Program-made: the position numbers and the translations under genes | Source: Stylophora pistillata | Lineage: Eukaryota | Direction of reading: 5' to 3' | Assembly (NCBI RefSeq): GCF_002571385.2 | Contig: NW_019218266.1 | Location: 8,843-72,842, forward strand | DNA length: 64,000 nucleotides | The notes under the pieces: model-generated | Seen by the model: the letters and a program-made list of their open reading frames with translations, nothing else | The model's database searches: none | Told to the model about the DNA's origin: nothing | In this document: positions 1 to 23,747 of the stretch, in pieces | How positions within the stretch are numbered: the stretch's first letter is position 1 | Layout: every line of letters begins with the position of its first letter

Positions 1-808
1 ACGGTCGCCCAAAGACATACTCAATGGGGCCAAACTTTGAATAGGCTACTCTAAACACGCGCTGGGGAGTCGTGTAGGACTGTCAACCCCATTTTACAAC
101 AATTTCTCGTCTAACTATTTCCGAAAAGTGTGTCCTGAATGAAGGTGGTTTCTTCTTTGTAACCCATAGTGACGTAGCCGTCTCTTCAAAGTCCTCACGT
201 TGATTAAAATCCCATGGTATTCTGCCAGAAAGCAGAGTTAATAGATATAGGTTCCCTCTATTAACTCTGCAGAAAGTGAGCAATGGTTTCGTAACGAAAT
301 CCCTTATTAAAGTAATGTTCTATAGCCAATCTTTCGTCTCCCGAGCTGGACAACACACTTTCCTCTTCACGCCATTTTAGTGTTCCACAACAACGGCAGA
401 ATGTTTCATTGTTCCCACATTCTCTTCCACATTTATGACAGAACATGTTCTATCCTCGTTCCTTCGCCATTTTGTATGCGGGAAGATGCGGGATATGGCA
501 AGAAAACGCCGGTGTAACGCTGGGTGACTGCTGGCGCAAATAGCACGCGACAAAAAATTTTTTTGGATTTGCAAAATATTTTCGGATTTTGAAAAAAGTT
601 TTTTGGATTTCAAGATATTTTTTTGGATTCGCAAAATATTTTTGGATTTTGAAAAATGTTTTTGGATTTCTAAAGATCTTTTTGGATTTGCAAAATATCT
701 TTGGATTTGTCAAACTTTTCGACAGTGAGTTTAAAATAAATATTGCGATTTGAAATATTTTTCGGCATTTGAAAAATATTTTTGGATTGTCCCTTTTCGG
801 CTTCCGTA
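1..808 (-). mobile_element. IS3EU-like DNA transposon (one end plus degenerate transposase N-terminus), continues off the window
   Basis: Minus-strand terminus TACGGAAGCC at 808 (TAY..RTA type). About 21-bp subterminal tandem repeats at 555-790. ORF from 446 encodes a CxxC..CxxC ribbon, then AIEHYFNKGFRYETIAHFL-AEYHGILINVRTLKRRLRHYGLQRR (HTH/Clr5-like) once the 233-269 insert and one TSD copy are removed. Hydrolase homology stops at about 809. Confidence 0.7.
233..269. mobile_element. 37-bp miniature inverted-repeat element with 7-bp TSD
   Basis: Perfect 13-bp TIRs cagagttaataga (233-245) / tctattaactctg (257-269). Direct repeat cagaaag at 226-232 and 270-276. Excision restores the host transposase frame. 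Confidence 0.85.
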
Positions 809-1396
809 GTGTTTCACACAAAAACAAAGGATCATGGGCGAACTTAGAAAGATGGACGTAATTGCGGAGGTTCAGCATGTGGAGGTCATCATGATAGGGT
901 GGGGAGTTGGTCATGACACCAATTGTATTATCGTACAGTTTTGGTCCCTCTTCGGTGTACTCAATAATGATGCCGTCACCACTTTTGTCCGTGATCGAGA
1001 AGTGCAATTCAAAGGTGTTTTCTTTCAGAGGTTGTTCCCACACAAGTGGGAACGAGTCCTTTTTCCAAGCCTCTCGCACCTCTTGAGCAGTTGCAAAGTT
1101 GCCCAGAATCCAAAACGTAAACTCCAAGTTGGAAATGGCCGAGCCACACTTGCTTTTGGAGATGAACTGATATCTGGAAAAACCAGGAAACAGAAGAGCA
1201 CCCACGGAAAGTCCAGCGTCATTTTAGCCGTCACTTCTGACAGGTGAGTCCCAAGCATCAAGGTATGCGATCTTGTATTTATTGGTCCAGGTCATTGCTG
1301 GTGAACTACGGGAGGAGGTCTTTGGTAGAGATGCAGTGTGAGGGTAACCCTTGGGCTCCACCAAGACACGCGACATAAGATCCACCATAAACTCCA
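809..1396 (-). pseudogene. Choloylglycine hydrolase/penicillin V acylase paralogue, pseudogene
   Basis: Aligns to the 6060-7166 protein from EFMVDL..VEPKGYPHT to SKFAHDPL. In-frame TAA at 1226-1224 where the intact gene has CTA (DG*NDAG vs DGLNDAG). Signal peptide and catalytic Cys absent. 3' part cut by the element ending at 808. Confidence 0.9.
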
Positions 1397-1410: not shown

Positions 1411-2201
1411 CAAACAAAAAATATACTGCAGCAAATAAAAAATATACTGCAGCAAATAAAAAATATACTGCAGCAAATAAAAAATATACTGCAGCAAATA
1501 AAAAATATACTGCAGCAAATAAAAAATACACTGCAGCAAATAAAAAATATACTGCAGCAAATAAAAAAATCAAAACGCAAAGAAAAAAAGTACCGCAGCA
1601 AATAAAAAATGCAACGCAAACAAAAAATACTGCAGCAAATAAAATATGCAACGCAAACCAGAAAAAAAAGAAAACGCAAACAAAAAAAATTGGAACGCAA
1701 CGCCAAGGAAAACTGGGTAATAGTTCTTAGTTTCCCGTCAACACTCGTTCCATCCTTTGCTTGTTCGCCTTTCCGAAACCATGTTTTGCAGCGAACTTAT
1801 GACAGTACCATGCTGCTCCTTTAAAAAAGTGATAATAACTCCATTTTCATACCCTTGATGAAAGCAATCTTCTATAATCCTACGCAGATCGCTTTCGTCC
1901 ATGACAAAAAGCAAGTTCCAGTTCATGCGGCTTTCAGGGAAACTAAGAACTATTACCCAGTCTTCCTTGGCGTTGCGTTCCAATTTTTTTCGTTTGCGTT
2001 TTCCTTCTTTTTGTTTGCGTTACATTTTTTATTTGCTGCAGTATTTTTTGTTTGCGTTGCAGTTTTTTATTTGCTGCAGTACTTTTTTTCTTTGCGTTTT
2101 GATTTTTTTATTTGCTGAAGTATATTTTTTATTTGCTGAAGTATATTTTTTATTTGCTGCAGTATATTTTTTGTTTGCGTTGAGCATTCTGGGCCACCGT
2201 A
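1411..2201. mobile_element. Non-autonomous IS3EU-like foldback element with 21-bp repeat arms
   Basis: Left arm 1411-1736 and right arm 1937-2201 are inverted copies built from aaaaaatatactgcagcaaat units. Right end reads TACGGTGGCCC on the minus strand; the left terminal ~25 bp are missing. The spacer encodes an HTH-like fragment MDESDLRRIIEDCFHQGYENGVIITFLKEQHG. Confidence 0.75.
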
Positions 2202-2203
2202 CT

Positions 2204-3910
2204 TTAGTCATCAAATTATTTCCAAGGTGGGCACACTACGCCGCGCTCTAACTCAACTTCAAGCGACCGCACGCAGACTTGTATCGTATCAGAAAACAAA
2301 AACATCCAGACCGCTTTCTCTTGTACTGGGAGTTTAACAACAACAAAAAAATGATTTCGGGGTCATAATTTGTTTTCTACTCACATTAATGATTTACCAC
2401 TCTAAAAGGAAAATAAATGTGAAGTTGATACGAGTGCCGACTGATTCCAGTGCCATCTGGTCGAGCGATGACAAGTGTAAGATTGCACCATTACAACAAG
2501 ATAGCGACCTCAAAAACGTAAACTGTTGGTCCAGCTGTGATGAGATGAGGCCTAACGTCTAAAAACAAAGCAAATGTTGATTGGAACTGCTCAAAAGCCA
2601 AAGCATGCATGCATCTAAGGGGCAAGTCGCACTAGGGCTAATTATGTTTTTATAAAATGTAAATCTGTCAAAAAGGAGCGTATTCCTAATCTTCAGAGGA
2701 GCCGAGGTCATGCTAAGACTCCTCCAAATTATGGGAAATCGTCTAATTTTGTTGTTTCTTTCTTTAACATCCACAACAACCTAACGGCCGCGAAAATACG
2801 ATTCATTTTGCCTGGTAACTCGCGCAAGATGTTCTGTTTTCTCTAAGGTGGAAGATGGGTTTGGGGTTTGTGAATGACGCCGCGGCTCATCAGTCAAGCT
2901 TTGGAATATACTTAAAAACGAGGGGGGCGGCTGTACACAGGCTAAATAAAGCGAAATTTTAGTCAATTTTTTTCCTCGCGAAAACCTGGAAAATACTTAA
3001 ATTCTCTCCCATGCAACCCTGCAAATTGAAAACCTGGATGTTATTATGACAAGTTGCTCTGAATCAAATTCTGTAGATTAAATCAAGATTTGATTTGATC
3101 AAATATGATTTCATCAAAATTACCGTTTGATTTAATTAGATTTCATTCAGTCACTTCTGAATTCTCTGGTTGAGTCATCATCACTTCCCAAGTAGGCACA
3201 CTACTCAGCGCTCTAAATAACCTTTAAGCGACCGCTCGCAGACATGTATCGAATCAGGAATTAAAAAACATCCAAGCCGCTTCCTGTTGTACTGGGAGTT
3301 CCAATATTACAGCCATATATTTTTTTCCACTCTCAATACACAAAAAGTGTTGATACGAGTGCCATCTGGTTTAGCGATACCACGTGTAAGAATGCACCAT
3401 CACTACAAGATAGCGGCCTCACAAATGCAAATTGCTGGTTCAGCTTTAATGGATGAAGCCTAACGTCTAAAGACGAAGCTAATATTGATTAAAACTGCTC
3501 GAAAGCTTCGTTATGCAGACAAGACATACATACATGTATTTCCAAACGACGCTTAGTAGGTGGGTCAGCTTATGCTCAATGGCTTCGTTGTGTAGACAAG
3601 ACTTCCATTCATCCACTTTAAAATAACGCTATGGGGATGGGTCACACAAAGGCTAACTATGTTTGTTAAGACATAAATCTGTCAACAAGAAGTGTATTCC
3701 CCAATCTTTAGAGGAGCCGAGGTCATGCTAGGAAAACATACGATTCTTGCCTAGTAACTCGCTCAAGATGTTCTGTTCTGTTTTCTCTAATGAGGGAAAT
3801 GGGTTTGTAAATGACGTTGCAGCCCCTCAGTAAATTATTGGTTTGACGCAATTACTGTTAATATTTGTAAACTGTGAAAGTTTTGACAAATTTTTCCTCG
3901 CGAAAAAGTG
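2204..3910. repeat. Diverged direct duplication of a ~750-800 bp non-coding unit (2204-3000 and 3171-3910)
   Basis: Collinear shared blocks, e.g. ggcacactac..gcgctctaa..aagcgaccgc, gttgatacgagtgcc, agaggagccgaggtcatgcta, caagatgttctgtt, tttttcctcgcgaaaa. Confidence 0.8.
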
Positions 3911-5973
3911 AAAAAATATTTCTTATACGACTCAGCCCTAGAGGAGAGACTGGAGAAAAAGAGTTAGAAGTAATTAACATCTCAAAGGGAGCTTGCAAAT
4001 TGTTTACGTCATCAGCAAACTAAACTCTGGAATTAGCTATAGCCTGCTCAAAAGGGCAACAACTTTTCTATCTGTGCATGTGGAGGAAAACATTGTAACA
4101 TTCCCTTACAAACCAATTCTCGACGGGCTGTTATGCAGTGTGGGGCAACTAATTAAAAGACCACTTAAATAGGTAGCTACGAGCTCGGAGAAGTTGCGTC
4201 AGAGTGATACTAGATGCTTTCTTCAACGACAATATAATATTGTTATCTGCTTAGTTAGGTCGGCTTCCACCTGACGATATTATTCGTGTAAGAAAACATC
4301 CCCACTTGATGAAGTCTGGAATGGCCATAGTCGGCAGAAATTTTCAACCAATGTTGAAGGTAATCTTACATGATTTTACACGCCGACTGACGATATCATT
4401 CGCGCAGAAAACATCCATACTCCATAAAATATATAATGGCCAGGGTCGGAAGTATTTTCTACCTTTGTGAAAGGAGAGCCTAATTAGAAAAAATGCTGGT
4501 TATCACGTCTAAGGGCAAGAAAAATTCAACTTCAGAACATTTCATGCCATTGCCACCCAACTGTGGAACGGAACAGATATCCCTTGGAGATGTCTTTTCA
4601 CAGATGGGTTTTTTTTATACTTCCAAAGAAAGAGAATATTGAGAAACTCTACTGCTGCGCAATGAAATAACGATTATACGTATCACATTTCTTTCTCTTT
4701 CTCTCTTTTTTTAACTAGTATTAACAGTTTATTTCACGCTAGTTTTATGCCAGATTTAGAACGGCTACTATGTAAACTACTAATCAGTAATTGATGTCAT
4801 CCACATGCACACAGTCGCCACAGCCAGTAGTTTTTGAAAATCTCCGACTTATCTCTGATAAGTGTAAAATTTCCCTGACCAGTGACTTGACAATTTCACA
4901 GAATAGTCTAAATGATGACCTTCGATTTTCCCTCACATCCATCCTCTCCACCCATTTATCTGCGCTTTTAGAAAGTTACATGCAATTTACATAGATTGAT
5001 ACTTCCTTAACTTAAAGTGGAAAAAGGGTTAGAATTCCTTGGAAAGCTAGTATCAGCTTGTCTTTCAATTTCTCTAAAAAATATTCTACTATTCCAACAC
5101 GTTCCAAGTCTGTGAAATGTACCAGCGAATTTGATAGGTTAAAGAACAGTAGATAACAATAGTAGATAAAAAGAGAAGCGTACTATTTCATTCACAAACT
5201 ACCTTTAGCTCGCATGGGTGACATCGACACCACAAAAACTGAAGTGTTCGCATCTTTCATCATGAGAAAGCTTATAAGTTTATATTTATTTGTGAATTCA
5301 CTTTCCTCTGACTTTTCCGCCCAAAGGCAAACTTTTCCCAGACTCAATGTAAAATTTCCTGACTTCTTCCTGACCTACAGCAACCATGCATGATTAATTA
5401 AAGTGCTATCTTTATCATAGATGGTGACTTGTAAGGTGAAACTACAGGTAAAACAAAAATAGTGATAAAAAAAGAGAATAAAAAATTAGTGGCAGGTGAC
5501 TTGTCTGGAGAGGCGCCAAAGATCAAAGATAGAAAGAAACGTGCTTCATGCTAAGATGGGAGGTTCCCGACTGAACACTATCTTTTGGTTTAGTGTTCTC
5601 ACAGTGCGACTGAACAAACCAAAAGCAGCTTTTGTTAACTGGTTACGCAGAAATGAAAGAAATACTATCAAGCGATGAGCAAGGCCAGGTTCGAAAACTT
5701 AACCGCGATGACAGACGGCAAGAAAAGGTGGGTTTGATTACCCCACAATCTTCACTTACTGACTGTGCTATTAATAAGTTGTCTGTAGACAGATCAATTA
5801 TTTTTTACCATTAATAAACCTATCGTCTTCGAAGAACGATAGACGAAGCATATCGATTGCATGACTGAAAGGACATCACGATATTTTAATTAGGAAATGT
5901 CACGAACGTGATGCTTTTGACAAGTATCATTCATGAATTATAGACACCTGTCTGACAGTTCCTTGAAAGTCAT

Positions 5974-5980
5974 TATAAAA
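5974..5980 (+). promoter_or_regulatory. Candidate TATA box of the Ntn hydrolase gene
   Basis: TATAAAA about 80 bp upstream of ATG 6060. A candidate AATAAA polyA signal lies at 7365-7370. Confidence 0.45.
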
Positions 5981-6059
5981 GGAGTGGCAAAAAAAGTTTT
6001 TATTACACATCGAAAGAAACCTTCGTTCAGATTGTCGCCTTTCTGAATCTTCTAGAACG

Positions 6060-7166
6060 ATGAAGCTTGCACTCGTGGTTCCAATAATGCTGGCGCATTT
6101 TCTTGTCACCGACGCCTGTACTGAGATTAGATTGACCGCCGAGGACAAAACTGTTGTAATCGGGCGGAGCATGGAGTATATTTTCGATCTCCTGCCGAAT
6201 GTCGTGGTGGAGCCAAAGGATCACCCCCATACTGTAGAGCTGCCAGAGACGTGTTCCCCTACTTCACCAGCAATATCCTGGACCAATAAATACAAGATCA
6301 TTTACCTTGACGCTTGGGAGATGCCTTACGCAACTGACGGCCTAAATGACGCTGGACTTTCCGCGGGTGCACTCTTGTTTCCTAGTTTTACCAAATACCA
6401 GACCGTCCCCAAAGACAAATGTGGTGCGGCCATTTCCAACTCGGCGTTCCAATCATGGATTCTAGGCAACTTCGCAACTGCTCAAGAGGTGCGAGAGGCT
6501 TGGAAAAAGGACTCGTTCCCACTTGTGTGGGGACAATCTATGAACGGGTTCATCTCTGAATTACACTGGTCTATCAACGACAAAACTGGTGACGGCGTCG
6601 TTATTGAGTACACCGAACAGGGACCAAAACTGTACGATAATACAATTGGTGTCGTCACCAACTCCCCACCCTATGACTTCCAAGTGATGAACCTCCGCAA
6701 TTACGTCCAACTTTCCAAGTTCGCCCATGATCCTTTGGTTTTGGGTAAAACAACGTTCCCTCCCACTGGCCAAGGAAGTGGACTCCTTGGTGTCCCAGGA
6801 GATTTCACTCCCCCTTCGAGACTAGTACGTTCTGCGGCTATGGTGCACTTTGCTAATCCAGTCAAGAAAAGCGATGAGGCGGTGAACTTGGCTTTCCACA
6901 TCATGAACACTGTTGATATTCCTCGCGGAGTCTCTTCATCCCATGATCATGAAAGTACGCCAGGCTACACTTCGTGGGTTGTGGTCAAGGACCTCACCAA
7001 CATGGCAATGTACTTTCGCACTTATGAAGATCTCACTATCCGTGTGGTGTATCTTGACAAATTAACCCCTAGCGAGAAGTTGAAATTCAAGATTGGAGGC
7101 CCTGTTGGCGGCTTTGTAGACGTAACCGGAGATCTTAAGCCTGCTCATGCGCGTACTGAACTTTAA
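6060..7166 (+). CDS. Secretory-pathway choloylglycine hydrolase / penicillin V acylase-family Ntn hydrolase (368 aa, intronless)
   Basis: 19-aa signal peptide ending TDA, then nucleophile Cys20 (CTEIRL). Family motifs GRSME, DGLNDAGL, GVVTNSP, NLRNY, GQGSGLLGVPGDFTPPSR, VDIPRG, YFRTY. C-terminal RTEL. Confidence 0.93.
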   Translation: MKLALVVPIMLAHFLVTDACTEIRLTAEDKTVVIGRSMEYIFDLLPNVVVEPKDHPHTVELPETCSPTSPAISWTNKYKIIYLDAWEMPYATDGLNDAGLSAGALLFPSFTKYQTVPKDKCGAAISNSAFQSWILGNFATAQEVREAWKKDSFPLVWGQSMNGFISELHWSINDKTGDGVVIEYTEQGPKLYDNTIGVVTNSPPYDFQVMNLRNYVQLSKFAHDPLVLGKTTFPPTGQGSGLLGVPGDFTPPSRLVRSAAMVHFANPVKKSDEAVNLAFHIMNTVDIPRGVSSSHDHESTPGYTSWVVVKDLTNMAMYFRTYEDLTIRVVYLDKLTPSEKLKFKIGGPVGGFVDVTGDLKPAHARTEL

Positions 7167-8257
7167 GGAAGCTTTTTGTTTCAGCGTCCAATTCAGTTAG
7201 GTAACTTACATGAGGTATATGAACTGAAACGCGCGCTCGATTTCAATGTTTATCCCGCTTGGGGCTTTACTGTGCTGGTGTTGGGAATAGTCATTTTTTG
7301 AAGCGAAGGTGTTTTTAAGGAGATCTTAGGATGGGTCTCTTAAATGTAATTCTTGTCGTTTTGAAATAAAAGTCTTTATCATTGTTGCTCGTTTTATCAT
7401 GTGACGGTTCTCAAACCTGGTATCTTGGGAAACTGCAATGGACGCATATCCAGGGGTTAAGAAACAGTTTCAGTTTTCACATTCGGACCAAAACTGAAGA
7501 CCTTCTCAGACAGCACCTTTAAGAGGATGATAGAATTATTTGTCTACGCCTAAATTTCAGCCTGACCAAACACCACACGATATACTTGAAGGTAGCGAAG
7601 CTCAACGATATGAGTGGCCCATTTCAAAGAAACTTTCTATAGTTATGGAATCGTGTGAAAGAGTTCTTTGAATTTTCATTCAAAAGCTGGACAACGAAGG
7701 CTTATGAGTTGCCATGCCGCTATTCAACAGTTGATGAAACCGAAATTACTTTGTTTCTCCCACCGACACAGCACCATAGTTTCCTTTGAAACCTACCCCC
7801 TTTCGCCATTCAACGATTGTCACTTTTCTTTTCTCTTTGTACAAACTCTCCATCTGCCCATCTCCCAGAGCGCCAGCTAATCTAAGGAACACAATTGCAG
7901 GGGGCTGGGACGAGGAAAGAAATTTTCCACCTGCTTCTCAGTCGCCCTCGCGCTCGCTTACCGTATTCTTGCTCGCTTTTCGCTCTGTCGCATGACGAAA
8001 AGAAACATAAAATAAGAACAAAGCGGCTGAAGCCTGACTTCTATTATACATAAAAAGTAAATCAGTCGGCTCTTAAGATGACTTAAGGTCACGCTAAATC
8101 GAAGGTACTGTCACCAGCAAAAGTCCTTTTCAGGACTACAGGCATCTGGACGATCACAAAGCAGGTCGTATATTTTGATATGGTGCAGTCCCCAAGTTTT
8201 TTCTTTTTAAGTTCCCTGGGTCCCTTCTTGCTTTCTCTATAGCCTTTAGGTCCTTGC

Positions 8258-11200
8258 TTAAAGAGCTGAACAGACTGGCACAGAGTTTCTGGTGGTGAAT
8301 CCATCCCCCTCGCCAGAACATGGCACTAGTCTTGGCTCCATGTCACACATCGGACACAATTTATCACGCACTACAGAACTCCGCATCCAAATAATCAAGT
8401 TGATTCTTTCTCCTGATTGGATGGGCAAAGCTCCATGCATATGTTGACCTCTGTGAAGAAGCCCGTAACTTGTCACGTGCTCACACTGAGTACATTGTGT
8501 ATCTTTCAGGGGGACCTAAAAAGGCCCAAGTCTAAATCAAAACTAGCATTTGTTTATAAAGGGTGTTCCATTTGTTGTTTTCTTCCCCAAATTTTAACAC
8601 AGGTAATTCATCATTTTATTGACGAAGTCCGTAGCGCGAGTCCATAAAAATCAGCCCGAAAAAATTATGTTTGCGCTCCGCACGTAACTTTCGATCTTGG
8701 ACTTCGCTCATAATCTTGAGGTTTCCTTCCAGCCTGCAGAGCAGGCGAAATTTTGGAGAGCAAGTACTCAGTGTTTTCTTGGTGAAAATCATAGCTCCCC
8801 TGTTTGATTTTTACAGCAGAGGAAGACTGGGAAGAGTAAGACATTTGAAACAAGAGGGTCTTATTCAAACATGGCCAATCGAATAAAAAATCACACTCTT
8901 GTAATGTTAACTCGCCTTAATAGGTCGCCTGCACTGTATGCTAGTTTCTTTCTATGTAAATGTAGTGTTTCAGTGACACAAAGGTGATGCAATTCAAATT
9001 CAAAGCTTACCTGTCTCATATCACCAAAAAACAACTCTCCTCCAATAAACTCCTTACCAAGTGATACATTTAAAGTGACCTCTGCATTGTCATAGTGATA
9101 ACTGAGATCAAGATCCTCTTCCATCTTGTAATGTACCGTGAATGCCTTGTGTGAATCTAAGGTGTTGCCCCCACATTCAGGATACAACAATCTTGTGATT
9201 GGCATCAAGTAATTTGTTCTCAGGGGTGAGAGAAGCTTCTCGTCAAAACCAAGCTCATTTAGTAAAACCTGTAAAAAATAAATAAATAAATAAGATTCTG
9301 AAAGATCTTAGAACATCGAAAAAGTGAACCTCAAAATAGAATTAAAGGTGAGAGAGGGGAAAGACCTTGAGGTACTTTAAAGAGAATAGGTCTCTTGAAC
9401 ATTTTTGATAACTGCTGTATCCAAGAATCTCCAATCATCTTGTTACACCTATATTTATAGTCCAGCATCAGTATGCATATTCTCAATACTGTTCTTTTTA
9501 CATTTCCTAAAGTACTGACAGGAGAATTTGAATATCAGTCAAAAGATTTTTTAGTTGGTGATCATTTCCTTTATTCTCCTGACCTTAATGTTTCATTCAG
9601 TAGTTTTACTGTAAGGAGACGTTCAATGCTGGTCACTAATGAAAATTAAAGGGTTAGGATTCTTAACACCCAAACACAGAAATTTTAATCAATGTGTCTT
9701 CAAATCTATGGCATCTTGATTTTCTTTTCCCTTAACTTGACAATTACTGAATTTATTAAATAAATTTAACTCGCTAGTAATTTATCTTTAAACTCAGATT
9801 CAGTTATAACATAATACAATACAATANNNNNNNNNNNNNNNNNNNNNNNNNNNNNNNNNNNNNNNNNNNNNNNNNNNNNNNNNNNNNNNNNNNNNNNNNN
9901 NNNNNNNNNNNNNNNNNNNNNNNNNNNNNNNNNNNNNNNNNNNNNNNNNNNNNNNNNNNNNNNNNNNNNNNNNNNNNNNNNNNNNNNNNNNNNNNNNNNN
10001 NNNNNNNNNNNNNNNNNNNNNNNNNNNNNNNNNNNNNNNNNNNNNNNNNNNNNNNNNNNNNNNNNNNNNNNNNNNNNNNNNNNNNNNNNNNNNNNNNNNN
10101 NNNNNNNNNNNNNNNNNNNNNNNNNNNNNNNNNNNNNNNNNNNNNNNNNNNNNNNNNNNNNNNNNNNNNNNNNNNNNNNNNNNNNNNNNNNNNNNNNNNN
10201 NNNNNNNNNNNNNNNNNNNNNNNNNNNNNNNNNNNNNNNNNNNNNNNNNNNNNNNNNNNNNNNNNNNNNNNNNNNNNNNNNNNNNNNNNNNNNNNNNNNN
10301 NNNNNNNNNNNNNNNNNNNNNNNNNNNNNNNNNNNNNNNNNNNNNNNNNNNNNNNNNNNNNNNNNNNNNNNNNNNNNNNNNNNNNNNNNNNNNNNNNNNN
10401 NNNNNNNNNNNNNNNNNNNNNNNNNNNNNNNNNNNNNNNNNNNNNNNNNNNNNNNNNNNNNNNNNNNNNNNNNNNNNNNNNNNNNNNNNNNNNNNNNNNN
10501 NNNNNNNNNNNNNNNNNNNNNNNNNNNNNNNNNNNNNNNNNNNNNNNNNNNNNNNNNNNNNNNNNNNNNNNNNNNNNNNNNNNNNNNNNNNNNNNNNNNN
10601 NNNNNNNNNNNNNNNNNNNNNNNNNNNNNNNNNNNNNNNNNNNNNNNNNNNNNNNNNNNNNNNNNNNNNNNNNNNNNNNNNNNNNNNNNNNNNNNNNNNN
10701 NNNNNNNNNNNNNNNNNNNNNNNNNNNNNNNNNNNNNNNNNNNNNNNNNNNNNNNNAGGGTTAGGGGCAGGAGATGTTAATTTCCCACGCACGAGATTAC
10801 TGTGTAATGGATGTCCTCCTCTGGGGTGGGATGGGTGGGTTTACTGGGCCCACAGTAATTGGTGCAAGCTGTTGCGGTGTCCCTGCCGGTCGGCGATGCT
10901 ATTAAATAATTAAATAAATAAATAATGTCCAAATGTCCAAAGTACTGAATCAAACAACACTGATATAAATGAAGATTGTTTCCTTGCAATTTAAATTTCT
11001 AGTCTGAACATGATTCTAATATTAATCAAAAAATATTCCTTACTTGTAAAATGTACACATCAGGATGCAATGGTTTATAATCAGATGAGATCATCTTTTT
11101 TCTCCTTTGTGAATCTCTACCTAGCTTTTTCCTTCTTTTTATTTCATCTTCTACCTAAGCATCCAAAAAAGCCTTTATTGGAGCAGTTTTTAATTTTATA

Positions 11201-12595: not shown

Positions 12596-15500
12596 ATGGC
12601 TCATTTACTTGGAAGTGAAGCTTGTTTGGGGAGCTTGAAACAAGACATCAATGATGTTCAAACGACAGTAATGGATTTATTATCCAGAGTAGGACACATT
12701 AGAAGTCTTTCGTGGAAATATCCAGATAAGATAGCTTCTGAGTTAGATATGGATGAACTGTTGGAGAGATATTCATATTCCAGTGATAATGACCACTGTA
12801 AACTGTCACACATAATTCTTTTTGAACTTCTTATTGACAGGTATACAATGAGTATTATACATTAATTATACATGTATTTTGATTGGGTTCTTCTTATGAG
12901 CTAATGGAGGACAGGGTCATAGATGATGTTACCATTAACAACAGTTTGGTTTTCATCATATAGAACAAATAGATTCCATGTTGCTGTGGGTCTGTAATAT
13001 AATAGATCACAGAAGACATCACAATGTGGTGAGAAGATCAATGACCCACTCTGCTACACCTTGTGTGACACTTTTTTGCTCTTACCACATTCTGACATCA
13101 TCTCTGATCTATTACTAGGCTGTACTCTTAGAAAAATTGAAGGGAGTCCAGTGCTCTGAAACTGTGAAACTCAGGGTGCCCTGCATTTGCTTTTTATGCA
13201 AAAACTAAGATTTCTGAGTCGTCCAAGAGCAAAAGAAAGGCACCAGGGGCCACTGGGTGCTGCTAGACCACACTGAGCCCTGTATTACTTAAAAGATGCA
13301 CAGCCATATGAAATCTATTTATTTTTTAGGGTGAGAGTTGTTGAAAATACCTCAGAAGGTGGGAATTGAATTTGAATAGACTTAACATTGTTTCCCCTCT
13401 TAACAGTCTAGACTCATGTTTCATCAAAATGTCATCAGAGACGTTTACTTCTAAGGTTATTTTTTTTATATAGATATAGGCTGGTTATCAGCCCCCAGTA
13501 AAAATATTATTTATGTTAAAATTGATAATAATAGTAACAATGATGGAGGTTGGAGGTTGGTTGGCCGCATCTTGATATGCTTTAATGTGACTGCATGATA
13601 CTTTTAGTGAGTTTCACATGCGCTGGTCAATACTTGGCTGTGTAGCAGCAAGATGCAGTTCCAGTTGAGACCCACAAATTGACCCTTGCTCACCACAGAG
13701 TCTCTGGTAGCTCAGCGGTTAGAGCATCTGACTAGGTCATTGAGGGTCCTGGGTTCAAATCCCATCTGGGACTTGGATTTTTTTCCGACTATACATTAAA
13801 ATTGTTGTTTGTTTCATCTTAATGATGATAATGTTATCATTATATTAATATTGTTGTTATCATTATTATTATAATTGTTACTATCATCAAGTTATTCCCA
13901 TGTGAATTCAGTAATGGATAGATTAAGTTTGTCATAATCTCAAGGGTGTAAATATGATCTGAAGATGACTTTTCTCAACAGACTTGTTCTTTTGCTGCAA
14001 TGTATGGCTCAGTTCAGTGACCAACTGCTGACTTCATGTGATGGGAGGCCAAGTAGTGGTAAAATATTAGGTTCCAGTATGTCTGTTGGACTTGTAGCCA
14101 AAAAGTTTTGGAACAAACTTGTCCATGTTCAGCAAACCATCCAGAAACTTCAGACTGAGGTGAGAAACATTCAAAAGTTGGTGAAATATTGTCTTTGATG
14201 AATTTTCAGAATCACATTAGATGGGAAGATGTATTCTCAGAAGTTCTTGCATCATGATAATCCATAATTTTTGTAGAGTCCATAATGAACAAGTGCTAGT
14301 TATTTTTTATGATAGTTTGTGTTTCCTTTCTCACATTTTTTTTTTTGTACTGATCTGCTTTATCTTTTGTTTGGTAAAAGAGAAATGAGATATTGATTAC
14401 CTATGGTGATTCAACTTATGTGTTTTCTAGAGCAAAGCCAAAAACAAAACAATGTCAAAGATGGAAGACACCATAACAGATCTGCGGGGTGAGGTTAAAC
14501 TCTTGAAGCAAGCTTCAGATAAAAAATCAGGCAAATCTTCTGTTGTCCAAGGAAAAGTTGAAAGCCAAAGTGCTAATAGAACTTCTGTGAAGTTCATTCT
14601 CTCTCCATCTGAGGAGTTATCTCTAGAAAGTTCTACACCCTCCCAGGAGCTTACTCTTGCTGTGGAAGATGTTACTCATGCAAAGACTTGTCAAGAGTCA
14701 TCAACACAGACTTATGACACTGCATTTATTCCATGTGAAGCTTGTGCTAGAACACAACAAAATCTTATTGAAGTTGGTAACATGGTGATTAAAGTATGTG
14801 AATCTCAAGGACTTCCATCTTCACTGGCAAAGCAGAAAAAACTCTTGCGACAATCCTTGATGGCTGCAGCTGATGTATCAAGGTGGGCATCTGAACAAAG
14901 CCAAGATCTTGCTAGAATTACTGATCACTTGGATAATTTATATGCACAGATAAATCCACTGGAAGATAGACTTAGTAGGTCAAAACAAGTTTGTGCACAA
15001 CTGGAAAAGCAAATCCAAGATCTGGAAAAGCAGTTGTTGGATAAGGACAGTGAAGTTGAAAAGAAGGAGGTAGACTTCAAAGAGAAGCTTAAACAAGTTG
15101 TTGCTGAGAAAGATCTGCTGCTATCTGATGCAGAAAAAATGAACAATGACCTTATGAAGGGAAAAGATGTCCTTCAGGGTATGGTGCTCAAACTGGAGGA
15201 AAAGAAAAAGAAGTACAAGGAGACAGTTAAGACCCTTGGTAAGTTTGTAAACACAAATAACATTAATTTACCACCAGTTAAACAGCCAATGAGAGGCCTG
15301 ATTTTGAAATAAGGAAATGAGATATAGCCAGTTGACACAGGACAATGCAGAAAATTTATTCTTGTTGCTTATTTCATAGCTGTTTTTTTTTTTTTTTTTT
15401 TTCAGGTGAAGAAAACAACAAGTTGTTAACAGAGTTAGACAAGGAGTCTAAAGAGGTAGCAAGGTTAACGGTGGTAGAGTCTGAAGTACAACAGCTAAAA

Positions 15501-18471: not shown

Positions 18472-19771
18472 TCACATAAGCTTTACAACATAGCAACATC
18501 CTAAGTAATTTTTTGAAGCTATTAAAATTATAAACAAAGTGAAATGCAGTATCATGTTTTTATTGCACATGCATCGCTTGTTCTTGGAGAAATATTATGC
18601 AATAATAAAATGAACCGACTTTAAAACGTAAACCATTATCTGCTCAGTGTGGATTTATTTTAGTTCGCTGGATCAAGATGAACGTTAACTCAAATATATT
18701 ATTATGTTTTCCCAAAGTTACCATGCATCGGCAGAAAGACAACTCTATCCTATCCCAGTTTGAAGTTACGGTTAACCTTCAGAGACACTTTTCGATATGT
18801 CGCCCCTGTACGTGTCGATGATGTATCAGAAAAGGATATTTAAAATATTTTGTCTAGGGTTGGACGGGTGAACACTGGACTCGAAGCATAACTCTTTCTC
18901 CCAGATATTCCTCAGCCTTGGAGAACTCTAGGACGAAGAAGGACGAAGGCAAAGAACAAATGGCGTTGTAGCGACAAGAAAAACCAAATCAGCGTTAACA
19001 TCTTAAGTTAATTTCCCTTTATTCCGCGAAGTTAGCAGCAGACTAACCTGCTTGGTGGAAGGGGGTGCCTGAAGCTAGGAAGCTGAAACAGGGAAAGGAA
19101 GGTATTTTCTTTTCACTTTTGTAAACAATTTCCGTCTAGCACTTCTTAAGTACAAAGTCCTCTGAGACAAGGGTACTGAGTTATGTTGGTCAATATAGAT
19201 TTATGAAGTTGGTGGTAACCAGTGTTTTTCTTTGACAATTTTTCCCCTATTCAGTCACAGCGACAAGCACTCCCCCTCGTTCTGCTTGTGCTAGCTATGA
19301 GAAAGCCACGCCGGATTTCCATCTCGCGACTGATAAGATTTTGTGTTGATTGTCATTGAATCCCAGAATATATTCCCATATGTCTCAGGGCAGCAACTAC
19401 TAAGTGTTAGGTTTGCTGTGAATATAAATATAATTTTTAACGTCAATAAAAAGTTGATCCCAATCCGGCGGTGTTTGCTCAGTACAGTATGAAACTCAGG
19501 GATCGATGCGCAACAATCATAGTACCCAGTAGTTAATTAGGAAAAGTCTTGAATTTTTGAACCTGCATCTGTCAGCACGCTTTCCGTATGTCAAGGAACT
19601 TTGTTTATTACAACCTGAATCATGTTTCAACTTTCCAACGAACCAACAGTTACCTAGCCGGAAACAAAGAATTTTTCCCATAGTCCTGCTGAGGAAAATT
19701 ACTGTTTATGTTTACCATGACATCGAACCACACGCCAATCAGTAGATATGAAAAGTGATCTGNNNNNNNNN

Positions 19772-20542
19772 AAATCCTACCAGGGTTCCGTCGCAAGAAG
19801 TGATGATAAGCACAAAATTGAAGTTGAACTGTGTGAAAAGGCTGACTTTGTCGTTGGAGTTGGGCCAAAGTTGGGTGAGTTATTTCAACATTGTATTGGC
19901 TGGTGTAAAATTCCTGTTGTAATTCTCATACCTGGAATTTTTGACGAATACTCTGAGATAGAACACGTACCTAGAGAGAGCAAAAGGTGTCGAGTTTTAA
20001 CATTTGGCCGTGGAGATAAGGAAGATTTCAAACTGAAAGGATTTGACGTCGCAGCTAAAGCGGTTGCCAGGCTAAGTGACACAATACTTATCTTCGCCGG
20101 TGCTTGCAAGGAAGACCTTCAACAGGTTACTGATAGGTTTTTGGAGTGCGGTATTTCTCCCAAAAACCTTGATGTAAGAGGTTTCCTTGAGACCAAACAT
20201 GATCTTATCAGGTTATTTTGTGAAGTGGATCTTGCGATCATGCCTTCCCGGACGGATGGCTTTGGACTAACAGCGCTTGAAGCTTTATCTGCTGGCCTAC
20301 CTGTCCTTGTGAGTCGGAACACGGGATTTGGAGAGGCACTCAGCAAGATCCCATTTGGTTCAATCTATGTGATTGATTCCCAGGATCCCAGTGTGGGCCG
20401 ACAAAATAAAACAGGCTTGGATGAAAGACGAGAAAACGGGTCATGAAGAAAGTAACCAATCTGCTTACCTTTTACAAAAAAAAATACAACTGGGAAAGGC
20501 AGTGTAATGATCTTGTTGCAAAATGGCGCAGCGCTGTTTTCG
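19772..20542 (+). pseudogene. GT4 (GT-B) glycosyltransferase paralogue, partial and frameshifted
   Basis: Homologous to the C-terminal two-thirds of the 25885-27064 GT4 exon (VVGVGPKL, GRGDKEDFKLKGFD, MPSRTDGFGLTALEALSAGLPVLVS). Frameshifts near 20390 and 20458. Ends at the same phase-1 GT donor (20543). 5' end lost at the small N gap. Confidence 0.8.
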
Positions 20543-20934: not shown

Positions 20935-23747
20935 AAAACAGACACAAGACAACACAGAAAATTGATCATTGTTGCTTGCTTCATAAATGTTTTTTCTTTC
21001 ACCCAGGTGAAGAAAACAACAAGCTGTCAACAGAGTTAGACAAGGAGTCTAAAGAGGTAGAGTCTGACGTGCAACAGATGAAAATAGAAATGGATGACTC
21101 ACAAGTGAAACTCAAAGACACTTCTATTGAATTGGGAAAAACGCAGGCCAGGAACAAGACCTTGGAGAAACATGAACAAGTAAGATATGGAGGTTTCTAT
21201 TGTAAGTGGAGGTGGTAAGATTAAGCCCTGTTGNNNNNNNNNNNNNNNNNNNNNNNNNNNNNNNNNNNNNNNNNNNNNNNNNNNNNNNNNNNNNNNNNNN
21301 NNNNNNNNNNNNNNNNNNNNNNNNNNNNNNNNNNNNNNNNNNNNNNNNNNNNNNNNNNNNNNNNNNNNNNNNNNNNNNNNNNNNNNNNNNNNNNNNNNNN
21401 NNNNNNNNNNNNNNNNNNNNNNNNNNNNNNNNNNNNNNNNNNNNNNNNNNNNNNNNNNNNNNNNNNNNNNNNNNNNNNNNNNNNNNNNNNNNNNNNNNNN
21501 NNNNNNNNNNNNNNNNNNNNNNNNNNNNNNNNNNNNNNNNNNNNNNNNNNNNNNNNNNNNNNNNNNNNNNNNNNNNNNNNNNNNNNNNNNNNNNNNNNNN
21601 NNNNNNNNNNNNNNNNNNNNNNNNNNNNNNNNNNNNNNNNNNNNNNNNNNNNNNNNNNNNNNNNNNNNNNNNNNNNNNNNNNNNNNNNNNNNNNNNNNNN
21701 NNNNNNNNNNNNNNNNNNNNNNNNNNNNNNNNNNNNNNNNNNNNNNNNNNNNNNNNNNNNNNNNNNNNNNNNNNNNNNNNNNNNNNNNNNNNNNNNNNNN
21801 NNNNNNNNNNNNNNNNNNNNNNNNNNNNNNNNNNNNNNNNNNNNNNNNNNNNNNNNNNNNNNNNNNNNNNNNNNNNGGTTAAACTCTTGAAGCAAGCTTC
21901 AGATAAAAAATCAGGCAAATCTTCTGTTGTCCAAGGCAAAATTGAAAGCCAAAGTGCTAATAGAACTTCTGTGAAGTTGATTCCCTCTCCATCTCAGGAG
22001 TTATCTCTAGAAAGTTCTACACCCTCCCAGGAGCTTACTCTTGCTGTGGAAGATGTTACTCATGCAAAGACTTGTCAAGAGTCATCAACACAGACTTATG
22101 ACACTGCGTTTATTCCATGTGAAGCTTGTGCTAGAACACAACAAAATCTTATTGAAGTTGGTAACATGGTGATTAAAGTATGTGAATCTCAAGGACTTCC
22201 ATCTTCACTGGCAAAGCAGAAAAAACTCTTGCGGCAATCCTTGATGGCTGCAGCTGATTTATCAAGGTGGGCATCTGAACAAAGCCAAGATCTTGCTAGA
22301 ATTACTGATCACTTAGATAATTTATATGCACAGATAAATCCACTGGAAGATAAACTTAGTAGGTCAAAACAAGTTTGTGCACAACTGGAAAAGGAAATTC
22401 AAGATCTGGAAAAGCAGTTGTTGGATAAGGACAGTGAAGGTGAAAAGAAGGAGGTAGACCTCAAAGAGAAGCTTAAACAAGTTGTTGCCGAGAAAGATCT
22501 GTTGCTAACTGATGCAGAACAATTGAACAATGACCTTATGAAGGGAAAAGATGTCCTTCAGGGTATGGAGTTCAAACTGGCTCAAATGCTCGAGAAAATA
22601 TCTCCAAGGAGAGCGTAAGTGGATGACGGCAGTGTCTATTTCCCTCAACAAACTCCTAAAGATTTTTCTTGAATTTGTGAAATGAGATAACTTGGTGTTG
22701 TGTCAACTGAGTTGATAATGTAAATTGGCCGCCACCGTAAAGAGTATCTAAGCTGACATTTGGAGCGTTCGTCCTTCGACAGAGCGAATGGCTTTGTTAA
22801 AATGAGTATACTAAGAATGTTGCTTAAGATCAATTTATCAAATTCCGAAAATACCCTGACCTTCCCTTAGTAGCTGCACGTGTATTGTTTGTTGTTTTAT
22901 CTTCGTCATGACTAGACTATCAAAACTGATAGAGTAATTTTTTTTGGTTCAAAAGTGGGAAATTTCTTCCTTTCCGGTTTTCCTTGAATATTCTTTGCGA
23001 TTCATTAAGACTCTCGTCCTCTTACTCAACCAGATCATCCTGGTCTTCACCAGTCACTCCACTCATAACCTGATCACAGGCGTCTTGTTTCCCGTGAATT
23101 TTCTCTACGTTCTTATTGGTTCCTCGTACTGTTGTCGTTGTTCTGACTGGCTGTTGTAAATGTCTTAGTACCGTGTCCCTCATTTATGACATGTGCTCCT
23201 ACTGGATAGGCTCATGAACGTTCAAGACACGTGCCACGTTCTCTCGTTTTCTCTCTCAGCGTTTCCAACTTTATTTTAAAACCGTCCAAACTTCGTGATC
23301 TTTTTTTAGGTACAAGAACCTGTTGCCTTGTGGAAACAACACAGTGACGAACCTGGACTAATGGAACAACAGAAGGATTTACTTAGGAGGTTTTGTTCAA
23401 TTTTTTAGCTGTCTTTTAGTTGTTCGCCTGTTTATAAAGTACTATTACAGATCTCAGAAGCAAGTTCACGAAAATATTTAGATTGGAATTATTTTAGCGA
23501 ACTGATTTTTTCTTGCCACTATACTTTACTGTTCTTTGTATTGAGAAGGTATAAGTCATCTTTACAGTAAACCCATGCAACTAATACAGCTTTTTCCGTT
23601 CTTTATTATTTGCACGTCTCCTGTTTAGAATTTTTATGAAGAAAACCCAAATGTTTCTCATAAGCGCCCAGCTTATGCCAACCAAGATTTGGATCATGAT
23701 ATCCATAAATCTTTTTGCTATGGTGCAGTGAATGAAAACTACACATG
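20935..23747 (+). pseudogene. Partial, rearranged CCDC157 duplicate(s)
   Basis: Exon-4 copy 21007-21179 (18-bp in-frame deletion), then a gap. Near-identical exon-3 copy 21877-~22580 fused out of frame to the end of exon 6. Intron-6 and exon-7 copy to about 23390. Exon-8 copy with a large internal deletion to about 23747. Confidence 0.85.

What the first reader, a model, noticed from the sequence alone, without database searches (positions are those of the whole stretch)
6060..7166. Bacterial-type bile-salt-hydrolase/penicillin V acylase embedded in an animal chromosome (likely horizontal transfer, possible quorum quencher)
Seen: an intronless gene with the full BSH/PVA motif set, 1.1 kb from spliced OGFOD2, with TATA and polyA candidates and a transposon-disrupted paralogue. 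This context argues against contamination. Known: these motifs (GLPGDFTPPSR-type, TNSP, NLRNY) typify bacterial choloylglycine hydrolases rather than animal acid ceramidase/NAAA, and some bacterial PVAs cleave acyl-homoserine lactones. I recall a laterally acquired AHL-degrading Ntn hydrolase being reported from Acropora millepora (AmNtNH1), so the family may already be described; this needs verification. Inference: a microbiome-modulating amidase.
Basis: partly seen in the sequence, partly recalled or inferred. Interest (0 to 1): 0.7.

Follow-up and report, generated by a model that had tools for sequence, protein, structure and literature searches.

The report
Coral's bacteria-derived amidase with ER tag
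This is an intact stony-coral gene from an already published cnidarian family that was likely borrowed from bacteria long ago; its enzyme is predicted to cut fatty-amide bonds, likely those of bacterial signalling molecules, and it ends in a tag that would hold it inside the cell rather than send it into the mucus.

Summary
Window 6060-7166 (+) is an intronless 368-aa choloylglycine-hydrolase (Pfam CBAH) gene, 1,091 bp from the stop of spliced OGFOD2. Independent contigs link it to coral DNA at flank-level depth, and polyA RNA contigs cover it unspliced. It is not contamination and not an acid ceramidase/NAAA. It is not new either. The family is in print (Acropora A5, 2011; quorum quencher AmNtNH1, 2024), and this locus is already annotated in NCBI. 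It belongs to one well-supported cnidarian clade (100/99) set among bacterial enzymes, in a pocilloporid subclade about 52% identical to the likely AmNtNH1 protein. It fails the curated BSH and PVA cut-offs. KDEL-like endings occur in 47 of 70 animal-clade proteins (13 different tetrapeptides) and in 0 of 77 bacterial relatives. Best reading: a domesticated cysteine Ntn amidase, likely held mainly in the ER lumen, that splits N-acyl amides, most likely acyl-homoserine lactones entering the cell. Activity and location are untested. The transposon-broken sister copy is real in this assembly but uninterrupted in other runs.

The parts
6060..7166 (+). Intronless CDS, 368-aa choloylglycine-hydrolase-family (Ntn) amidase P0001
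   Evidence: RNA contigs show no joint inside it
6060..6116 (+). Predicted signal peptide (19 aa, hydrophobic core, small residues at -3/-1); cleavage would expose Cys20
   Evidence: Kyte-Doolittle 9-mer max 2.9; TxA before the catalytic Cys in 44 of 65 animal-clade rows where the site was matched; no signal-peptide predictor was available
6117..6119 (+). Cys20, N-terminal nucleophile (= Cys2 of CpBSH)
   Evidence: alignment; Cys in 69 of 70 animal-clade and 79 of 80 bacterial rows
6165..6176 (+). Arg36 and Glu39 (= Arg18 and Asp21 of CpBSH; Glu is the state of the donor-like bacteria)
   Evidence: Glu in 63 of 70 animal-clade and 78 of 80 bacterial rows
6252..6422 (+). Animal-only cysteine pair Cys65 (6252-6254) and Cys121 (6420-6422), candidate disulfide
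   Evidence: both present in 67 of 70 animal-clade rows, 0 of 80 bacterial rows; the bond itself was not tested
6375..6377 (+). Leu106 at the oxyanion/pocket position (Asn in BSH, aromatic in PVA)
   Evidence: aromatic in 75 of 80 bacterial relatives; Leu or Met in 58 of 70 animal-clade rows
6660..6821 (+). Asn201 (6660-6662) and Arg254 (6819-6821) (= Asn175, Arg228), with the Gram-positive-type assembly loop between them
   Evidence: ungapped against 2bjf over this loop
7152..7166 (+). C-terminal RTEL + stop: KDEL-like ER-retrieval tag
   Evidence: RTEL ends the human ER protein FKBP2 (PMC2140024 Table I)
5974..5980 (+). TATA-box candidate (weak)
   Evidence: 0.16 expected by chance in the 200 bp searched
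7365..7370 (+). Polyadenylation-signal candidate
   Evidence: 0.37 expected by chance; in polyA run X10 contig depth falls from about 286 to 7 near 7356, a weak hint only
8258..9267 (-). Last two exons of convergent host gene OGFOD2, intron 8516-9010
   Evidence: splice joint in RNA contigs of X10 and X1
809..1396 (-). 5' piece (codons ~38-229) of a broken sister copy, in-frame TAA at 1224-1226, 6-nt insertion, first ~36 codons missing; its 3' piece lies outside the window at G000:C482:3526-3953
554..808 (.). Terminal inverted repeat of the 5.7-kb element that splits the sister copy (6-bp target duplication at 809-814)
1411..2178 (.). Second inverted-repeat element built of 21-bp tandem units, at the place of the sister copy's missing 5' end

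Best explanation
The gene is an intact, intronless coral member of a cnidarian choloylglycine-hydrolase family likely acquired once from bacteria, and it encodes a predicted cysteine amidase that likely sits mainly in the ER lumen and likely splits fatty N-acyl amides, most probably bacterial acyl-homoserine lactones (AHLs) that enter the cell. Steps: (1) shown: intact frame, coral context, coverage by polyA-library contigs, catalytic Cys/Arg/Asn/Arg kept. (2) Inferred from sequence: signal peptidase cuts after Ala19 and frees the Cys20 alpha-amine; Cys65-Cys121 forms a disulfide; RTEL is read by the KDEL receptor and the enzyme is returned from Golgi to ER, with some leak to the outside possible. 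(3) From established Ntn chemistry (PMC8066178): Cys20 attacks the amide carbonyl, Asn201 and the backbone NH of Leu106 form the oxyanion hole, and the acyl-enzyme is hydrolysed, giving a fatty acid and the amine. (4) Inferred from the relative AmNtNH1: the amide is an AHL. My odds per step: real coral gene 0.98, bacterial origin 0.93, active amidase 0.9, cleaves AHLs 0.6, mainly ER-held 0.6.
For: Family and fold: Pfam CBAH E 2.3e-57; 32 of 32 PDB sequence hits are bacterial BSH/PVA-type enzymes; the AlphaFold model (pLDDT 81, pTM 0.83) has PVA/BSH structures as all listed Foldseek hits. Origin: 46 animal-clade rows form one clade (100/99) among bacterial sequences in a 79-row IQ-TREE; the best 80 prokaryote genome loci are 35-42% identical, named corals 51-73%. 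Genuine: DNA-like runs cover gene and flanks at the same depth (X14 142-170 vs 142-178; X5 48-54 vs 43-62), single contigs cross both gene ends, and one X1 contig runs from 6474 into spliced OGFOD2. ER tag: KDEL-like ending in 47 of 70 animal-clade proteins, 13 different tetrapeptides, against 0 of 77 bacterial ORFs and 0 of 58 other proteins. RTEL ends human FKBP2 and is not among the five motifs that failed in the reporter; HTEL binds KDEL receptor 1 as KDEL does (PMC2140024 passages). The genome encodes an ER-lumen-receptor (ERD2) gene. AHL link: AmNtNH1 inactivates AHL (as cited in PMC12496222); several bacterial CGHs cleave AHLs. A pocilloporid-subclade protein (XP_027053848.1 = P0024) is listed in a Pocillopora larval proteome (supplement of PMC12960093).
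Against: No enzyme or localisation assay exists here. The window protein is only 52% identical to the likely AmNtNH1 protein, differs from it at the pocket positions 39 (E vs D) and 106 (L vs M), and a direct grouping of the pocilloporid six with it is rejected (p-AU 6e-14). The solved AHL-cleaving CGHs are its weakest PDB matches (5j9r E 7e-20, 4wl2 1e-15, 5x8z 3e-6). The loose KDEL pattern was drawn after seeing the data; only 16 of 70 fit the strict PROSITE pattern and RTEL is not one of them; 23 of 70 lack the tag, among them all 5 Hydractinia rows. The 70 rows are related, not independent. KDEL-variant efficiency was measured in mammalian cells, not coral. Papers citing AmNtNH1 place it in the mucus.
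Confidence: 0.5

Rival explanations
1. Secreted quorum quencher: the enzyme is exported to the mucus or larval surface and destroys AHLs outside the cell, shaping the microbiome; the RTEL tag is leaky or serves only quality control.
For: Signal peptide. The A. millepora relative is expressed in larval ectoderm (PMC3204972), rises after MDP challenge (PMC3723955; that pA79-1 is the same gene is inferred) and is discussed as acting in mucus. A Pocillopora penicillin V acylase is planula-enriched. Many KDEL variants retain only partly.
Against: Selection has kept a KDEL-receptor-type ending through 13 different tetrapeptides in 47 of 70 rows, with Glu at -2 in all 47, while residues -5 to -9 vary freely. 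Bacterial relatives, most with export signals, never have it (0 of 77). The likely AmNtNH1 protein itself ends KEEL.
Confidence: 0.27
2. ER lipid-amide or xenobiotic hydrolase: the enzyme acts on the coral's own or its algal symbiont's N-acyl amides (N-acyl amino acids, N-acylethanolamines) or on small foreign amides; any AHL activity is a side activity.
For: ER tag and aliphatic pocket residue Leu106. The family is expanded into old paralogue lineages. The window gene and its sister P0003 carry an excess of changes in the substrate loops (9 of 28 vs 41 of 277 sites, p 0.024; P0003 9 of 27 vs 16 of 272, p 1e-4; the other four members p 0.07-0.5), which suggests a shifted substrate. CGH enzymes are promiscuous.
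Against: The genome has its own NAAA/acid-ceramidase-type loci (3 NAAA-beta matches). The only tested family member is reported as an AHL quencher induced by immune challenge. The loop test is uncorrected and uses loops mapped by sequence.
Confidence: 0.2
3. Not a transferred coral gene: bacterial contamination, a chimeric scaffold, or a vertically inherited ASAH1/NAAA-type gene.
For: The gene has no intron; its GC3 (0.52) is a little above seven host exons of the window (0.33-0.48); no long read was available and no single contig spans the whole gene plus both flanks.
Against: Equal depth and bridging contigs in independent runs. Relatives on chromosome-scale records of several corals and Hydractinia. 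A second intact copy among GPCR-like and Ig-domain host genes. Eukaryote-type targeting tag. A family profile finds no acid ceramidase or NAAA in the PDB even at E 10 (35 hits), and the protein does not match the genome's own NAAA-beta loci (best E 7-9).
Confidence: 0.02

Closest known systems
AmNtNH1 / transcript A5 of Acropora millepora (Mason et al. 2024 Curr Biol, PMID 38942019, not readable here; Hayward et al. 2011, PMC3204972)
   Same: Same cnidarian clade, same architecture: signal peptide, CBAH domain, KDEL-like tail. P0156 (XP_029207487.2/489.2; 369 aa, ends KEEL) matches the 2011 description of A5 and has accessions next to AmNtNH1's XP_029207486.1; that it is the AmNtNH1 locus is my inference.
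   Different: 52% identity; separate subclade; one-to-one sister grouping rejected, wider co-orthology of the robust-coral group with the acroporid group neither shown nor rejected (p-AU 0.26); Glu39/Leu106 vs Asp/Met; RTEL vs KEEL; activity untested.
Bacterial bile salt hydrolase (C. perfringens CBAH, PDB 2bjf; NCBIfam NF038245)
   Same: Best PDB sequence hit (E 2.7e-40); Cys2, Arg18, Asn175, Arg228 and the assembly loop are kept.
   Different: 183.6 bits against a cut-off of 350; Asp21 is Glu, Asn82 is Leu; signal peptide and ER tag; firmicute BSHs form a distant clade.
Penicillin V acylase (B. sphaericus 3pva, B. subtilis 2oqc; NCBIfam NF058572)
   Same: Top Foldseek hit 2z71 (TM 0.70); the nearest environmental bacteria have the PVA-type aromatic at the pocket position (75 of 80).
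   Different: 177.8 bits against a cut-off of 600; the aromatic is replaced by Leu.
AHL-cleaving bacterial CGHs (A. tumefaciens PVA 5j9r, 4wl2, Shewanella SlCGH1-type 5x8z)
   Same: Same fold and chemistry; precedent for AHL acylase activity within the family.
   Different: Weakest PDB matches; the coral enzyme keeps the assembly loop that Gram-negative-type CGHs lack.
Mammalian paraoxonase 2 (functional analogue only)
   Same: Intracellular host enzyme that hydrolyses AHLs (PMC8865250 passages).
   Different: Unrelated lactonase (opens the ring; recalled), not an amidase; vertically inherited.

Membership tests
Choloylglycine hydrolase family (Pfam PF02275, Ntn hydrolase) | Full-length CBAH domain over the curated cut-off | tested here: met
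   195.5 bits vs 20.4, residues 20-335
Choloylglycine hydrolase family (Pfam PF02275, Ntn hydrolase) | Ntn alpha-beta-beta-alpha fold with N-terminal Cys nucleophile, Arg18, Asn175, Arg228 equivalents | tested here: met
Choloylglycine hydrolase family (Pfam PF02275, Ntn hydrolase) | Amide-hydrolysing activity | not testable with these tools
   needs recombinant enzyme
Bile salt hydrolase (NF038245) | Curated model score; Asp21 and Asn82 | tested here: not met
   183.6 vs 350 bits; Glu39, Leu106
Penicillin V acylase (NF058572) | Curated model score; aromatic residue at the Asn82 position | tested here: not met
   177.8 vs 600 bits; Leu106 (rule from PMC8066178)
Cnidarian laterally acquired Ntn hydrolases (AmNtNH1 family) | One clade of cnidarian CBAH proteins set among bacterial CGHs, holding the A. 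millepora protein | tested here: met
   46 rows, 100/99, includes P0001 and P0156; 29 of the 46 rows are unnamed; P0156 = AmNtNH1 locus is inferred
Cnidarian laterally acquired Ntn hydrolases (AmNtNH1 family) | Signal peptide plus C-terminal ER-retention-like tetrapeptide, as described for A5 | tested here: met
   by sequence only
Cnidarian laterally acquired Ntn hydrolases (AmNtNH1 family) | Orthology to AmNtNH1 | tested here: inconclusive
   direct sister grouping rejected (p-AU 6e-14); group-level co-orthology p-AU 0.257
Cnidarian laterally acquired Ntn hydrolases (AmNtNH1 family) | AHL degradation | not testable with these tools
   known only for AmNtNH1, from citing papers
Animal acid ceramidase / NAAA | NAAA-beta domain and sequence similarity to ASAH1/NAAA | tested here: not met
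   only CBAH in Pfam; no such PDB hit at E 10; no match to the genome's three NAAA-beta loci
KDEL-receptor-retrieved ER luminal proteins | Signal peptide and C-terminal KDEL variant | tested here: met
   RTEL; variant on human FKBP2; not in the strict PROSITE pattern
KDEL-receptor-retrieved ER luminal proteins | ER localisation that depends on the tag | not testable with these tools
   needs cell imaging or secretion assay

The most novel reading that the evidence does not exclude
After one ancient transfer, cnidarians re-addressed a bacterial exported acylase to the ER: KDEL-like tags were kept through 13 different tetrapeptides, a disulfide was added, and some Hydractinia copies end in a hydrophobic membrane-anchor-like tail instead. 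The coral 'quorum quenchers' would then be intracellular AHL sinks that protect host cells from membrane-permeant bacterial signals (an amidase counterpart of mammalian PON2), with paralogues such as this one tuned to different acyl chains by their pocket loops.
Probability: 0.3. Interest if true: 0.6.

Novelty: new member of a known kind. Interest (0 to 1): 0.27.

Why it matters
As a discovery it is modest: the transfer and the quorum-quenching role of the family are published, and an ER-retention signal was already noted on the Acropora protein in 2011. The useful addition is that the tag is family-wide and absent from bacterial relatives. That turns 'where does coral quorum quenching happen: in mucus or inside cells?' into a direct test (delete four residues). 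Stylophora-type robust corals also hold several paralogues with diverged pocket loops, and one copy is broken in this assembly but whole in other runs, which could matter for differences in microbiome control between colonies.

Tried and rejected
Mason et al. 2024 could not be read; what it says about localisation, taxon range and this paralogue is unknown to me, supplements included. Donor lineage: not resolved; the animal clade's nearest rows are unnamed proteins and one Planctomycetota locus at 82/93 support, and the genome scan was cut at 600 rows. A second homologue search from the deep branch P0211 named no animals beyond stony corals and Hydractinia among its 120 listed rows; most rows are unnamed, so the range is open. 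GC3 is not diagnostic. dN/dS against the broken sister copy was mixed (0.78 for the 5' piece, 0.24 for the 3' piece) and saturated against the C273 copy, so I draw nothing from it. TATA and polyA words are near chance. The 419-aa gene model PFX17290.1 adds an upstream exon; no such joint appears in the RNA contigs of X10 or X1, though contigs cannot prove absence. The disulfide could not be checked because model coordinates are not returned. No complex was predicted: an oligomer would pass by likeness to solved BSH/PVA. No transposase frame was seen in the sequenced part of the 5.7-kb element, about half of which is N. Earlier scan findings: none on this gene. No searched paper held both a family term and KDEL (12 listed), but a full-text passage of one of them reports KEEL on A5.

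Full report
Observation. Window 6060-7166 (+) is a single open frame of 368 aa. It matches Pfam CBAH over its mature length (E 2.3e-57). All 32 PDB sequence hits are bacterial bile salt hydrolases, penicillin V acylases or related enzymes, best C. perfringens 2bjf at E 2.7e-40. An AlphaFold model (pLDDT 81, pTM 0.83; residues 1-17 and 235-251 unreliable) returns only PVA/BSH structures among the listed Foldseek rows. Against the six catalytic residues given in PMC8066178 (passages read), Cys20, Arg36, Asn201 and Arg254 are identical, Asp21 is Glu39 and Asn82 is Leu106. It scores below the curated cut-offs for BSH (184 vs 350) and PVA (178 vs 600), so it is a choloylglycine-hydrolase-family enzyme but neither in the strict sense.

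Host and context. The neighbours are animal genes: OGFOD2, a kinase, F-box/WD40, LIM-homeobox. OGFOD2 ends 1,091 bp downstream on the other strand and has a GT..AG intron. A named record in the same 90% cluster, PFX17290.1 'Choloylglycine hydrolase [Stylophora pistillata]', contains the whole protein, so the host is that stony coral or a very near relative, and the locus is already annotated.

Not contamination. Of 24 runs listed, 20 hold the stretch, 6 of them on record as RNA. I laid 4 runs on 3500-9820. In the two DNA-like runs the gene's contigs have the depth of the flanks (X14 142-170 vs 142-178; X5 48-54 vs 43-62). One X14 contig runs from 3500 into the CDS; contigs of X14 and X5 run from 6786 to 7909. 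One X1 contig (RNA by guess) runs from 6474 to 8513 and on across the OGFOD2 intron. PolyA run X10 covers 5845-7275 without a joint. These are contigs, not reads: they show linkage and presence, not strand or level, and none spans the whole stretch.

Family and origin. A search found 1,295 relatives, 120 listed; the named animal rows are Oculina, Pocillopora, Desmophyllum, Acropora, Montipora, Stylophora and Hydractinia. The best 80 of 593 prokaryote loci are 35-42% identical and come from many phyla. After dereplication a 214-row FastTree gave a 70-row animal clade (0.999). A 79-row IQ-TREE subset gave the same clade (46 rows, 100/99), set among bacterial sequences, with firmicute BSHs far away. 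The root was put on two Gram-negative-type plasmid enzymes; 29 of the 46 rows are unnamed; the donor is unresolved. Acid ceramidase/NAAA could not be aligned: a family profile finds none in the PDB at E 10 (that such structures are deposited is recalled), and the genome's own three NAAA-beta loci give no match. One old transfer into cnidarians is the simplest reading; an order of events was not tested.

What is in print. AmNtNH1 is cited as a quorum-quenching hydrolase of A. millepora that inactivates AHL and is induced by immune challenge (passages of PMC12496222, PMC12924552 and its preprint), accession XP_029207486.1. The primary paper was not available. Hayward et al. 2011 (PMC3204972, passages) describe transcript A5: 369 aa, CBAH domain, best hits bacterial, signal sequence, putative ER-retention signal KEEL, larval ectoderm expression. 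P0156 fits this (369 aa, KEEL) and carries the next accessions; I take it as the AmNtNH1 locus by inference. Weiss et al. 2013 (passage) report a choloylglycine hydrolase up-regulated by MDP. A Pocillopora larval proteome paper (passages and two supplement rows) lists a planula-enriched penicillin V acylase and the subclade member P0024. The window protein is 52% identical to P0156. It sits in a six-row pocilloporid subclade (100/100). Joining that subclade directly with P0156 is rejected; a wider robust-plus-acroporid grouping is not (p-AU 6e-14 and 0.257).

The first 19 residues look like a signal peptide whose removal would expose Cys20 (by hydrophobicity and pattern only). The protein ends in RTEL. 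Across the 70 animal-clade rows, 47 end in a KDEL-like tetrapeptide (16 by the strict PROSITE pattern), against 0 of 77 bacterial ORFs whose stop was found (of 80 loci) and 0 of 58 other proteins. Thirteen different tetrapeptides occur, with a chance rate near 3e-4 per protein. The pattern was drawn after seeing the alignment and the rows are related; still, the tag appears in most deep branches. The 23 exceptions include probable truncated models, three endings with one extra Arg, and all five Hydractinia rows, three of which end in a hydrophobic tail. In Raykhel et al. 2007 (PMC2140024, passages) RTEL ends the ER protein FKBP2, and HTEL and HDEF bind KDEL receptor 1 as KDEL does. The genome has an ERD2-type receptor gene. 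A cysteine pair (65, 121) is present in 67 of 70 animal rows and 0 of 80 bacterial rows.

Mechanism. Shown: intact frame, coral linkage, presence in polyA libraries, catalytic core. From established Ntn chemistry: Cys20 forms an acyl-enzyme and releases a fatty acid and an amine. Inferred: ER retrieval by RTEL; an aliphatic pocket (Leu106, where 75 of 80 bacterial relatives are aromatic) suited to acyl chains; AHLs as substrate by analogy to AmNtNH1 and to bacterial CGH acylases (abstract and passages). AHLs are lipid-soluble, reach host cells and are hydrolysed there by PON2 in mammals (PMC8865250, passages), so an intracellular sink is plausible. Against: nothing was assayed; the solved AHL-cleaving CGHs are the most distant PDB hits; and this gene and its sister P0003 have an excess of changes in substrate loops (uncorrected), so its substrate may differ from AmNtNH1's.

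Paralogues. The genome holds a second intact, intronless copy at G000:C273:381894-382997 (55%, ends RDEL), from a lineage shared with Acropora and Oculina (100/100). The nearby sister copy (about 82% DNA identity) is broken by a 5.7-kb inverted-repeat element with a 6-bp target duplication, an in-frame stop, loss of its 5' end and loss of the stop after RTEL. In 4 further runs laid on 300-2400, X6 (DNA) and X11 (polyA) show contigs that continue in frame past the insertion point, and X2, X6 and X11 lack the 6-nt insertion; Logan protein P0362 fits that whole form. Whether this is another allele or another tandem copy is open; extra depth at 6454-6875 in DNA runs points to further close copies.

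Verdict. Real and well supported as a gene; already known as a family; a new, untested member. Interest 0.27. The most novel reading, intracellular ER-based AHL removal, has about 0.3 probability and is testable by deleting four residues.

Noticed in passing
window 554-808 and G000:C482:3954-4207 (L006): A 5.7-kb element with about 255-bp terminal inverted repeats made partly of 20-bp tandem units and a 6-bp target duplication; very high read depth over the arms in DNA run X6 suggests a high-copy family. About half is N; no transposase frame seen.
   Followed up: partly
window 1411-2178: Second foldback-like element: inverted arms of 21-bp tandem units around a 200-bp core, high depth in DNA run X6.
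   Followed up: partly
G000:C482:1909-3610 and 5118-6818 (L006): A 1.7-kb direct duplication (97.6%) beside assembly gaps that repeats the sister copy's 3' end; may be an assembly artefact or a further tandem copy.
   Followed up: no
window 25861-27090 (+) and 19721-20446 (+): Intronless 'GT4-conflict' glycosyltransferase (Pfam PF20706, E 3e-80) directly upstream of a coiled-coil protein kinase exon (27398-29317), with a second, broken GT4-like copy; resembles components of conflict systems.
   Followed up: no
window 14431-15312 and about 21880-22618 (+): Near-identical duplicate exons of a coiled-coil gene on either side of a gap; local duplication or haplotype duplication in the assembly.
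   Followed up: no
proteins P0104, P0186, P0187 (Hydractinia): Family members that end in a hydrophobic tail instead of a KDEL-like tag, as for a GPI anchor or membrane anchor.
   Followed up: partly
window 5223-8513, run X1: Contigs in a presumed RNA run cover the whole stretch between and beyond the convergent genes, possibly overlapping 3' UTRs or read-through of OGFOD2 across the amidase gene (antisense); contigs cannot tell.
   Followed up: no
L007 3463-4474, 7719-8825; L008 2868-3519: The second intact copy (C273) lies among several GPCR-like open frames and Ig-domain exons (read by eye, not scanned).
   Followed up: no
protein P0169 (Acropora cervicornis, 1,483 aa): A gene model about four times the usual length, probably tandem copies merged by the annotation, or a true multi-domain fusion.
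   Followed up: no
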